Position numbers and translations under genes: made by a program. This document shows, piece after piece, positions 39,683 through 42,471 of a stretch of 64,000 nt of DNA. Every line of letters begins with the position of its first letter. Position 1 is the first letter of the stretch. The notes under the pieces were generated by a model that saw only the letters and a list, made by a program, of their open reading frames with translations, searched no databases and was not told where the DNA came from. Source of the stretch: Chiloscyllium plagiosum (Eukaryota); NCBI RefSeq assembly GCF_004010195.1, contig NC_057751.1, positions 2,453,286-2,517,285 on the forward strand, read 5' to 3'.

Positions 39683-42029
39683 TAATGCTGATGAAGTGCA
39701 AGACTGCTGTTCCCAAGTTTAATCAGATCTCTTTTTTTTGCTGTGGCCTTTCTATGTGTAATTCTTATGGAAAATAATTTCATAAAAGCAGTGACTATAG
39801 GTTGATGAGCCCAGTCAAATCAACCAATTCTCCTGTTTGACTGGCTGTTTCCTTATACACAGTATACAGAAAAGATTGAAATGATTGTGGTGATTAAGAA
39901 GCAGCTTGACTGTGGGCCAGCTGTTCCCTCTTGGCAAGGAAATATTCCTTCTAAAAGCTAATCATTAGAAACCAAGACTTGAAACACCAATTTGACCTGC
40001 ACACAATCTTGCAGCAAGGAGAAGGTTCTGTTGTCACTGTCTAGTTCAGCACCAACTAAGTAGGCAGGGCAAAGAAAGATACTCTGCATAATCAGTCGGA
40101 GGCATCAGCTCTGCATTATTACCTGAGCCACGTGTAAATTGGCAGAAGACAACCCAGATGGATGTGTGGCTCAAAATCTTGAGTGGGAGGAGTGGGTTCC
40201 AGCTAGTGGGGACTGGCATCAGTACTGGGGAATTTGCACCAATGGGATGATCTCCATCTGAATTGTCTGGTGGACAGTGATTTTGCTGATACCATTGTGA
40301 GGGAAGTAGAGAAGATTTTAAACTAAATCATAGGGAACAAGAGATAAATTTGGAAGAATAGAAAATCAAAGAGTAGAGTTAATGGCTGAAGTGAAAGATA
40401 TTAATATGGAAAATGATGAATAGACTATGACAGATGTAAATCAAACATACAACCAATAGATAAGGCCAGAAATTACAAAGAGAATAAAAGGAGAAAATAA
40501 AGAGAATGCACATAGTATTTAACACATAACAGATGAACTGAGAGTGCAAATAGAGAAGAATAATTATCATCTGGTGGCCATAACAAAGATATGGCTGCAA
40601 GATGACCAGCAGGTTTGAGTGCTGCATTCTGAAGGATATAGGATATTTGGAAAAATTTGATAGCCAACTCAGAAAGGTGGAAAGTTGGCTCTGTTATTTA
40701 ATGATGAATGATCACAATAAAACAGGGTGACCTAATTCAGGAAACCAAGGTGTGGAAATAGTTCAGGTCGAAATGAGAAATGATAAAGGCAAGAAATCAC
40801 CCACAGAAGTGATGTACAAGCCACCTAACAGCAACCACGTGGTAAGATAGACCATGAGGAAGAAACAATGAAACTTTGTCAAAAAAATCACAGTAATGAT
40901 CATGGAAAATTGTCACCTACATATTTACTGGAAAAGTCAGATGGGCAAAGGTCATTAAGATGAGTACTTGTCAGAATATGTTTGGGATAGTTTAATAAAA
41001 TATCATGTTTGAGAACCAACAGGAGTTTGGTTGTGTAACTCTGTTTTTGGGAAAGAGGAGTGGGCTGAAGATGTTTCAAATTTAAATAAGGGCAGTTCTG
41101 GGCACATGAAAGTAGAACTGACTAAAGTGAATTGGTGAATTAAGGCAAAGCAGAGGTCCATCAGGATGGAATGGCAGTCATTTTAGAGGATATGTCAGAA
41201 TACACAGAACAGATACATTCTAATGATGGTGAAAAATTTCAAGGGATGAACCCACCCTTCATAAATAATCACAGAAGTTAAAGATGATAGCAAACTAAAT
41301 GAAAAAAAACATACAATTGCGCAAAGGTGGCAAATGACACAATTAAAGAGAATATAAAATGCAGCAAAGCATGCCCAATTAAAAGAAAAAAATAGAAAAT
41401 GACAGAAAGCCAGCCAGAAATATGAAAGCAAATCCTGTAATTTTTTTTAAAAAAAGAAGTCAGTAAAGAGAGCATTGGTCCCATAGGAAGTGAAACTGGA
41501 GAATTAATGAGGGAAAAGAAGGAAATGGCAGATGAACAGGAATCTGCATCAGTCTTCATGCTTGAAAATATAAATAACATCCCAGAAACTGATAAATCAG
41601 GAAATGGAAGGAAACAAGAAACTCAAGAAAATTGCACTCATCACAAAAGTGGGACTGAGTAAATGGCTGGGGTTACGGGCTGGCAAGTGGCTAGAACTGA
41701 ATGAACATCATCCTAGAGTCTTAAAAGAAATCATGAGAGAGATAAATGATGTATTGGTTTTAATTTTCCAAAACCCTCTTGGCAGTCCTTTCAGACAAGA
41801 AAATGTTCAAAAAGGATGGGAGACAGAAAGCAAGAAAATTGAGGCCAGTGAGCTTAACAACTGTCAAAGGGACAATGTGAGAAGCTACTTTAAGGATGCC
41901 AAAACAGGGCATTTGGAGAAGTTCAAGGTCATCAGGAAAAGTTAATATGGCTTTACAAAAGGGAAAATCATGTTGAGCCAATCTGTTTGAGTTCTGAGAG
42001 GTGGTTATACATGCTTCAGTGAAAGGGGA

Positions 42030-42230
42030 GAAAGTGAGGTCTGCAGATGCTGGAGATCAAAGTTGAAACTTTATTGCTGGAACAGCACAGCAGGTCAGGC
42101 AGCATCCAGGGAACAGGAGATTCGACGTTTCGGGCACAGGCCCTTCCTGAAGAAGGGCCTGTGCCCGAAACGTCGAATCTCCTGTTCCCTGGATGCTGCC
42201 TGACCTGCTGTGCTGTTCCAGCAATAAAGT
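42030..42230 (-). mobile_element. Palindromic Penelope-terminus mini-insertion (83-bp perfect inverted repeat + tail), 15-bp flanking direct repeat
   Basis: Arms 42064-42146 and 42152-42234 around loop CTGAA. TTCAGTGAAAGGGGA occurs at 42015-42029 and 42231-42245, with a few nt of microhomology to the element ends. Confidence 0.9.
42144..42177 (+). ncRNA. Minimal type I hammerhead ribozyme motif
   Basis: UUC-CUGAAGA-A-GGGC(CUGU)GCCC-GAA-ACGU-C/GAA. Helix I is UUC:GAA, helix II is GGGC:GCCC, ACGU is palindromic, and the predicted cleavage is after GUC (42174). Confidence 0.7.
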
Positions 42231-42471
42231 TTCAGTGAAAGGGGAACTGGAAGAAATACAGTACTTAGATTTCCAGAAGATTCATGATAAGGAGTCATAT
42301 CTAAAATTATTGCAAAAAATAAAAGCCGTGGTGTTGAGGGAGCATATTGGCATGACAAGCTGATTGGAAGCAAAGAGTGGGTAATTTTCTAGTTGACAAA
42401 TGTAATGAGTGATGTTGACAAGAATCATATTTGGGACCTTATCTTTTTACGTAGACATAGACAAGGAGTCC

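What the first reader, a model, noticed from the sequence alone, without database searches (positions are those of the whole stretch)
42015..42245. Young hairpin mini-retroelement carrying a minimal hammerhead ribozyme
Seen: an 83-bp perfect inverted repeat (42064-42146 / 42152-42234) with a ~36-nt unpaired tail, flanked by a 15-bp direct repeat and inserted in a decayed CR1. The right arm and loop read UUC-CUGAAGA-A-GGGC(CUGU)GCCC-GAA-ACGU-C-GAA. Established: Penelope-like elements (PLEs) carry minimal type I hammerheads in their terminal repeats, with a palindromic tetranucleotide replacing helix III, and are proposed to cleave as dimers. Inference: this is an ORF-less ~200-bp ribozyme-bearing insertion made by a recently active PLE. 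It is either an extreme 5'-truncated and inverted product or an independent non-autonomous family. In read-through transcripts the ribozyme fold would compete with the long hairpin.
Basis: partly seen in the sequence, partly recalled or inferred. Interest (0 to 1): 0.75.

Follow-up and report, generated by a model that had tools for sequence, protein, structure and literature searches.

The report
Truncated fold-back Penelope retroelement insertion
This 201-base hairpin is a real, recent insertion, missing from other individuals' sequence at this spot, and is likely an ordinary dead-on-arrival tail end of a Penelope-like jumping gene, whose hammerhead ribozyme motif is predicted to be locked inside the hairpin, rather than a new kind of element.

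Summary
There is an 83-bp perfect inverted repeat, a 15-bp target-site duplication (TSD), a 34–37-nt tail and an intact minimal type I hammerhead core, inside a decayed CR1-like RT.

The empty site, with the 15-mer once, is contiguous in one conspecific sample and in a related species, and is inferred in a second conspecific sample. The insertion is therefore young and unfixed.

The window holds 100%-identical relatives: a second hairpin with a different junction and its own 15-bp TSD, and a non-inverted copy. An older hairpin has a third junction. An 84%-identical end shares a 12-bp TSD with a Neptune-type GIY-YIG fragment, across an N gap.

So the hairpins form separately at each insertion. 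This is the published 'inverted 5′-truncated copy plus 30–40-bp tail' pattern of Penelope-like elements, not a master hairpin family. The likely route is priming from both target nicks at two RT start sites, joined by microhomology.

Unexplained: all 7 short-copy 5′ ends in the window lie inside or at the edge of the hammerhead. The scan noted such fold-backs earlier on other pieces of this genome.

The parts
42015..42029 (+). Left copy of the 15-bp target-site duplication; its last 3 nt also match the element's 3' end
   Evidence: present once in empty-site contigs of X2 and X10
42027..42063 (-). PLE 'tail' (34-37 nt), the stretch between the inner and outer 3' ends of the element
   Evidence: Same stretch and ends in copies at 5137-5172, 25822-25857 and about 45422-45454; 30-40-bp tail described in PMC8557442 and PMC11167929
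42064..42146 (-). Tail-bearing arm: element end in antisense on +, 5'-truncated inside the hammerhead core
   Evidence: unit positions 8-127, 100% identical to the copy at 25730-25857
42144..42146 (+). 3-nt microhomology (TTC/GAA) at the inversion junction, belonging to both arms
   Evidence: sequence
42144..42177 (+). Minimal type I hammerhead motif: 3-bp helix I, core CUGAAGA, unpaired A, 4-bp helix II, GAA, palindromic ACGU, predicted cut after C 42174
   Evidence: features as listed in PMC4209133; cleavage not tested
42152..42234 (+). Short arm: element end in sense, stopping at the inner 3' end; last 4 nt shared with the right TSD
42231..42245 (+). Right copy of the target-site duplication
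41803..42360 (+). Decayed CR1-like LINE reverse-transcriptase sequence that is the insertion target
   Evidence: E 5e-5 for 41803-41994 against the RT at 24797-25513, which hits Pfam RVT_1 at 1.8e-20; conserved words continue across the empty site; the name CR1 is recalled
5122..5338 (.). Sister hairpin insertion, 100% identical in sequence, with a different junction (72-bp arms, 7-nt loop), a 36-nt tail and its own 15-bp TSD (5122-5136 / 5324-5338)
25730..25857 (+). Non-inverted sister copy, 100% identical, 128 nt, hammerhead core to tail end; only a 7-bp direct repeat overlapping its own ends
45235..45468 (.). Older-subfamily hairpin (82-86% identical) with a third junction, tail on the right and a degenerate 14-bp TSD (12 of 14)
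55291..55986 (-). 5'-truncated PLE copy: Neptune-type zinc-finger linker and GIY-YIG start (55623-55973), N gap (55347-55620), then an 84%-identical element end (about 55303-55346), all within a 12-bp TSD (55291-55302 / 55975-55986)

Best explanation
This is a recent, TSD-bounded insertion that is likely a dead-on-arrival 3' end of an autonomous Neptune-type Penelope-like element (PLE), with the hairpin likely built during this one integration event rather than copied from a hairpin master.

Shown: the anatomy; the empty allele; identical sisters with other junctions; two tight clusters of 3' ends 33-37 nt apart; and a related end linked to an endonuclease fragment by a TSD.

Inferred mechanism (about 0.55 for this step): the PLE GIY-YIG endonuclease nicks both target strands 15 nt apart. 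Each 3' OH primes reverse transcription of sense RNA, one at the outer start site and one at the inner start site, which leaves a tail on one arm only. Both cDNAs stop in the 5' half of the hammerhead, their 3' ends anneal through TTC/GAA, and fill-in yields a head-to-head repeat inside a TSD.

The hammerhead is a passenger: the RNA was copied through the cleavage site uncut. In a read-through transcript it is predicted to be trapped in the 83-bp helix.
For: Empty site: one X2 contig (same species) runs 41700-42014 straight into 42231-42510. One X10 contig (related species) does the same. X6 is inferred empty, because its contig stops aligning at 42014 with 58 nt left, which would overlap the next contig by 30 nt.

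Junctions: 3 of 3 window hairpins differ. 5' ends lie at unit positions 8 and 0-1 here, 12 and 21 at 5.2 kb, 10 and 2 at 45.3 kb, each with 2-3 nt of microhomology. The 15 joints displayed of 262 lie at many different positions.

Ends: each of the 3 hairpins has one outer end (unit 127-128) and one inner end (about 90-94) against a 14-15-bp TSD.

Parent: the 55.3-56.0 kb copy has CX4CX2C plus a GIY-YIG start. [quoted passage not shown] That linker marks Neptune/Nematis and is absent from Penelope/Poseidon (PMC8557442).

Literature: the inverted 5'-truncated copy plus tail is typical (PMC8557442; PMC3846280). A purified PLE cuts and extends both strands, starts RT at two sites that bound the tail, and uses uncleaved RNA (PMC11167929).

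Geometry: the loop is in sense on the strand whose 5' part carries the tail, so fold-back of a single target-primed cDNA cannot give this copy.
Against: No full-length element of the young subfamily was seen. The ORF link is for a subfamily 84% identical over 57 nt, and it crosses a 274-N gap. Pfam GIY-YIG scores are below the curated cut-off.

All 7 5' ends of short copies in the window fall at unit 0-21, tighter than random truncation suggests and also expected of a short template RNA.

This copy has 3-4 nt of target microhomology at both ends, whereas the in vitro study reports priming without homology and no strand difference in start site. The sample is only 3 hairpins. The filled allele was not among the displayed rows.
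Confidence: 0.75

Rival explanations
1. The template is a short (about 130-nt) non-autonomous linear RNA that begins at the hammerhead, a retrozyme- or SINE-like derivative mobilised in trans by a Neptune-type PLE. The hairpin still forms at insertion.
For: 7 of 7 short-copy 5' ends in the window lie at unit 0-21. Several joints in X2 and X6 start the sense arm at 42144-42151. Very high family depth. Tandem retrozymes derived from pLTRs are reported in one chondrichthyan (bioRxiv 10.64898/2026.07.22.740005).
Against: A related end is ORF-linked in the window. 76 contigs in X2 and 75 in X6 run on upstream of 42144 with a weak shared consensus (agreement 0.39-0.41), so some copies extend further. 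Hammerhead cleavage would start an RNA at 42175, not 42144. No head-to-tail array of the unit in the window.
Confidence: 0.15
2. Same parent, other route to the hairpin: an antisense RNA self-primes at a small palindrome (TTC with GAA), RT copies it back, and the endonuclease resolves the intermediate, leaving the tail on one side.
For: Proposed for palindromic inverted junctions in PMC3846280. Compatible with the loop strand of all 3 window hairpins. The hammerhead 5' edge is a natural mini-hairpin.
Against: It does not by itself explain why both arm ends sit at two fixed positions abutting the TSD. In vitro, sense RNA is copied from both target strands (PMC11167929). No expression data here.
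Confidence: 0.25
3. An independent non-autonomous family whose master copy is itself a hairpin and is moved as a unit, or a MITE-like DNA element.
For: Similar size and 15-bp TSD in two young hairpins. A few joints recur in two or three runs (42059 to 42144 and 42068 to 42144 in X2 and X6; 42107 to 42191 in X2, X6 and X10).
Against: Sequence-identical sisters have different junctions and arm lengths, and one is not inverted. The repeat is not terminal on the tail side. Joints recurring across runs can be one inherited locus.
Confidence: 0.04
4. The palindrome is an assembly or library fold-back artefact.
For: The assembly has N gaps next to PLE ends. The filled allele is not among the displayed read rows.
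Against: An exact 15-bp duplication of a site that is single in the empty allele. Family-typical inner and outer ends. Same build in an old hairpin with decayed arms (82-86% identical to the young unit).
Confidence: 0.03

Closest known systems
Complex insertions of canonical EN+ Penelope-like elements: inverted 5'-truncated pLTR plus 30-40-bp tail (PMC8557442; PMC3846280)
   Same: Head-to-head inverted copy, tail at one end only, TSD, short palindrome or overlap at the inverted junction, strong 5' truncation, hammerhead in the terminal repeat.
   Different: Reduced to the extreme: no ORF sequence, about 120 nt per arm. TSD of 12-15 bp against 8-10 bp in the Adineta examples read.
Neptune clade of PLEs (CX2-5CxxC linker before a C-terminal GIY-YIG)
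   Same: A related end in the window is TSD-linked to a fragment with CX4CX2C and GIY-YIG; its full-length homologues are RT + GIY-YIG ORFs of about 820-890 aa.
   Different: Clade placement rests on the linker motif only (shared with Nematis and Naiad); no RT tree was built; the focal copy has no coding sequence.
Minimal type I hammerheads of metazoan PLEs (PMC4209133)
   Same: Intact core, unpaired base between 9 and 10.1, G10.1-C11.1 pair, palindromic ACGU in place of helix III, short helix I. That paper also reports opposite-strand min-HHR pairs 100-700 bp apart and mostly single motifs from truncated PLEs.
   Different: Helix II is 4 bp, helix I only 3 bp here, and the motif is embedded in its own antisense.
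Non-LTR retrozymes (bioRxiv 10.64898/2026.07.22.740005)
   Same: ORF-less, type I hammerhead, derived from PLE terminal repeats.
   Different: Retrozymes are head-to-tail tandems with at least two ribozymes. This is head-to-head with one complete core.
L1 twin priming (recalled, not read)
   Same: Both target nicks prime cDNA; inversion junction with microhomology; TSD.
   Different: In L1 the two segments are different parts of the RNA. Here both arms copy the same stretch from two nearby internal start sites.

Membership tests
EN+ Penelope-like element insertion | Single ORF with PLE RT and GIY-YIG endonuclease | tested here: inconclusive
   Absent from the focal copy. A linker/GIY-YIG fragment is TSD-linked to an 84%-identical end across an N gap; its homologues carry RVT_1 and GIY-YIG, mostly below Pfam cut-offs.
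EN+ Penelope-like element insertion | Inverted 5'-truncated terminal repeat in head-to-head arrangement | tested here: met
   3 hairpins in the window
EN+ Penelope-like element insertion | Optional 30-40-bp tail at one end | tested here: met
   37, 36 and about 33 nt in the 3 hairpins
EN+ Penelope-like element insertion | Target-site duplication confirmed by an empty site | tested here: met
   X2 record 8, X10 record 1
EN+ Penelope-like element insertion | Hammerhead motif in the terminal repeat | tested here: met
Neptune clade | CX2-5CxxC zinc-finger-like linker upstream of a C-terminal GIY-YIG | tested here: met
   Met in the related copy at 55623-55973 only (criterion from PMC8557442)
Neptune clade | RT phylogeny places it with Neptune | not tested
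   No RT of this family in the window and no named reference sequences on hand
Minimal type I hammerhead | Conserved core, extra base before helix II, G10.1-C11.1, palindrome at 15-16 | tested here: met
   sequence against PMC4209133
Minimal type I hammerhead | Covariation in helices I and II across copies | tested here: inconclusive
   Too few variants. Loop II and N7 differ between subfamilies while core and helix II are kept. The majority older form has 42177 A>T, which would mismatch the third pair of helix I if the 5' strand is unchanged.
Minimal type I hammerhead | Self-cleavage (dimeric or protein-assisted) | not testable with these tools
   Needs an in vitro assay
Non-LTR retrozyme | Head-to-tail tandem of at least two units each with a complete hammerhead | tested here: not met
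   Head-to-head, one complete core; no tandem of the unit in the window
Master non-autonomous hairpin element / MITE | Copies share the same junction and termini | tested here: not met
   3 of 3 window junctions differ; varied joints

The most novel reading that the evidence does not exclude
The hammerhead fold itself sets where PLE reverse transcription stops, and may pair two template RNAs through the ACGU palindrome. A dimeric RT-endonuclease would then prime both target nicks at once, one RNA per nick at the inner and outer start site, and stamp out mini-hairpins. A very large, species-specific, still-unfixed subfamily such as this one would be a natural in vivo record from which the unresolved PLE integration mechanism, and a non-catalytic role for the ribozyme, could be read directly.
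Probability: 0.15. Interest if true: 0.55.

Novelty: new member of a known kind. Interest (0 to 1): 0.2.

Why it matters
As a single locus it is an ordinary transposon fragment. Its value is as a clean specimen. It has an exact empty allele, identical sisters with different junctions, and a subfamily that appears to have expanded in this species after the split from a relative.

How PLEs make inverted repeats and tails is called undefined in PMC8557442, and PMC11167929 says the steps after initiation are still to be validated. A genome-wide table of such young copies (end pairs, junction positions, microhomology, TSD length) could test priming from both nicks against antisense self-priming. 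The insertions would also serve as presence/absence population markers, and perfect hairpins are potential sources of double-stranded RNA (inference, not tested).

Tried and rejected
- No whole genome is held, so the genome-wide junction table could not be made.
- A gapped family motif found 0 matches in viral, prokaryotic-genome and metagenome contigs.
- Rfam: nothing at gathering score. At E up to 10, 49 sub-threshold matches, led by miRNA hairpin models; these were rejected as a consequence of the palindrome.
- RNA: no RNA holder was listed, and 0 reads of X22 were laid from about 6% of the run. This is no test of expression or cleavage.
- Summed contig depths are not copy numbers. They were used only as a between-species contrast.
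- Monomer and two-copy folding of the 34-nt motif recovered helix II but not the catalytic dimer; this is uninformative.
- The Poseidon-like GIY-YIG fragment at 2660-3046 was considered as parent and set aside: it lacks the cysteine linker and has no similarity to the unit.
- Single-cDNA fold-back was rejected for this copy and the 45.3-kb copy on loop orientation. It remains possible for the 5.2-kb copy.
- Searches for a paper on this family or on twin priming in PLEs listed nothing that addresses them by title or abstract start. Repbase and subscription journals are not covered.
- Earlier-findings look-ups by sequence and by place were empty.

Full report
OBSERVATION. The window has an 83-nt perfect inverted repeat at 42064-42146 / 42152-42234 with a 5-nt loop, and an exact 15-nt direct repeat at 42015-42029 / 42231-42245. 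As RNA the stretch folds at -189 kcal/mol, z = -23.6, with 0 of 200 shuffles as good. A minimal-hammerhead pattern with a paired helix II matches 3 times in the window; 29 of 30 shuffles gave 0 and one gave 1. Rfam gives no match at gathering score and no hammerhead family among 49 weak matches. The flanks are a decayed LINE RT. 41803-41994 matches the window's RT at 24797-25513 at E 5e-5, that RT hits Pfam RVT_1 at 1.8e-20, and the conserved words continue across the empty site. The name CR1 is recalled. The host looks like a cartilaginous fish; this is recalled from the repeat and stated in earlier notes, not tested.

EMPTY SITE AND AGE. I laid 4 of the 24 listed runs. In X2 (organism A, the species label of the best holders of this stretch) one 1525-nt contig covers 41700-42014 and continues directly into 42231-42510, with 2 differing letters. 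In X10 (organism B) one contig does the same. In X6 (organism A, another sample) a contig stops aligning at 42014 with 58 nt left over. That remainder would overlap the next contig (42259-42510) by 30 nt, as adjoining contigs would, so an empty allele is inferred. The 15-mer is therefore a true TSD and the insertion is not fixed. The filled allele was not among the displayed rows (247 joints and 100,526 pieces were not shown), and contigs drop rare variants. At 42067-42073, where the young subfamily differs from older ones, summed depth is about 1.0-1.2 million in X2 and X6 but 6,000-10,600 in X10. At two of the three diagnostic sites most of the X10 depth carries the other letter, while family-wide depth is similar in the three runs. 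The tool warns that these depths are no copy number, and only about 85% of X10 was read. I read this only as a sign of a species-specific expansion. The RNA run X22 gave 0 reads, which is no test.

SISTER COPIES IN THE WINDOW. Positions are numbered on the 128-nt copy at 25730-25857.
- Focal copy: tail arm 8-127, short arm 0/1-90, junction overlap 3 nt, TSD 15.
- Copy at 5137-5323: 100% identical, tail arm 12-128, short arm 21-92, overlap 2 nt, TSD 15.
- Copy at 45247-45454: 82-86% identical, tail arm 10-127, short arm 2 to about 94, overlap 3 nt, TSD 12 of 14.
- Copy at 25730-25857: 100% identical, not inverted, with only a 7-bp repeat that overlaps its own ends.
- Copy at 55303-55975 (minus strand): an element end 84% identical over 57 nt that stops at the inner site, then a 274-N gap, then a coding fragment, all inside a 12-bp TSD.
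So 3 of 3 hairpins have different junctions, and each has one outer and one inner 3' end, 33-37 nt apart. The 15 joints displayed of 262 are also scattered, though a few recur between runs.

PARENT. The fragment at 55623-55973 reads CX4CX2C followed by the start of a GIY-YIG domain (Pfam GIY-YIG E 0.16, below cut-off). It has 3022 relatives at E up to 0.001. [quoted passage not shown] The best hit, P0001, had no Pfam match. PMC8557442 gives this linker for Neptune and Nematis (also Naiad, whose EN is N-terminal) and not for Penelope/Poseidon. A Neptune-type parent is thus likely, but the link crosses a gap, concerns an older subfamily, and no RT tree was made.

MECHANISM. Shown: both arms point their 3' ends outward onto the TSD, end at two fixed positions, and meet by 2-3 nt of microhomology. 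From the literature: a purified lizard PLE cuts and extends both target strands, starts reverse transcription at two internal sites that bound the tail, and uses uncleaved RNA; its hammerhead cleaves only with protein (PMC11167929). Inferred: each nick primed a cDNA, one from the outer and one from the inner site; both stopped in the 5' half of the hammerhead and joined end to end. In this copy the loop is in sense on the strand that starts with the antisense tail. A single target-primed cDNA folding back would give either the other loop or no tail, so two templates, or an antisense RNA, are needed. The antisense self-priming model of PMC3846280 fits all three hairpins too and stays a real rival. 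Against my reading: this copy has 3-4 nt of target microhomology at both ends, the in vitro work saw no strand difference in start site, and n is 3. In the full insertion, helix II pairs have probability about 1e-18, so the ribozyme is predicted to be silent in read-through RNA.

UNEXPLAINED. All 7 5' ends of short copies in the window lie at unit 0-21, inside or at the edge of the hammerhead. Either RT stalls at this structure, or a short template exists. Against a hard wall, 76 contigs in X2 and 75 in X6 run on upstream of 42144 with a weak shared consensus (agreement about 0.4). Several joints also truncate the tail arm much earlier. Cleavage would put a 5' end at 42175, which does not match.

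COMPARISON AND NOVELTY. An inverted 5'-truncated copy with a 30-40-bp tail is described as typical of PLEs (PMC8557442; PMC3846280). Minimal hammerheads with exactly these features, mostly single or as opposite-strand pairs and ascribed to truncated PLEs, are described in PMC4209133, which found low cleavage even for dimers. It is not a retrozyme by the head-to-tail criterion (bioRxiv 10.64898/2026.07.22.740005). I found no paper on this family, or on twin priming in PLEs, in the searches. Repbase, subscription journals and the preprint's supplements (which may list this family among chondrichthyan consensus sequences) were not seen. Two earlier notes of this scan on other pieces of the same genome reach the same reading. 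I had stated mine before seeing them, and they are not independent support.

WHAT I READ. PMC4209133: parts 1-2 of 4 (introduction, results, discussion, start of methods). PMC11167929: parts 1-2 of 4 (main text, start of methods) and passages. bioRxiv 10.64898/2026.07.22.740005: parts 1-3 of 5. PMC8557442, PMC3846280, PMC6155905: passages only. No supplements. L1 twin priming is recalled.

VERDICT. A real, young, unfixed, ORF-less fold-back end of a probably Neptune-type PLE; a new member of a known kind; interest 0.2.

Noticed in passing
window:2660-3046 (+): 5'-truncated Penelope/Poseidon-like GIY-YIG fragment without the cysteine linker, running into an N gap (3047-3339): a second PLE lineage in the window (clade label inferred from the missing linker).
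   Followed up: partly
window:3047-3339 and 55347-55620: Both N gaps of the window abut PLE sequence, suggesting that PLE ends break this assembly and that copies are under-represented.
   Followed up: no
window:24704-25727 against 20455-21464: Two CR1-like copies match in two blocks of opposite relative orientation, so one carries an internal inversion; the non-inverted PLE end at 25730 begins right where one block stops.
   Followed up: no
window:42060-42073 and 42177: Positions that separate the young subfamily from older ones; the young form is abundant in runs of organism A and about 100-fold lower in organism B, a candidate species-specific marker.
   Followed up: partly
window:42469-42537: Another very high-copy repeat begins here (depth in the hundreds of thousands in three runs); unrelated to the finding.
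   Followed up: no
window:42787-43150: Two diverged direct copies about 205-215 bp apart of a LINE-like 3' end (71-86% identical).
   Followed up: no
window:1046-1525 (-): 159-aa open frame with a coiled-coil-like stretch followed by a motif recalled from L1-type ORF1 proteins; not tested.
   Followed up: no
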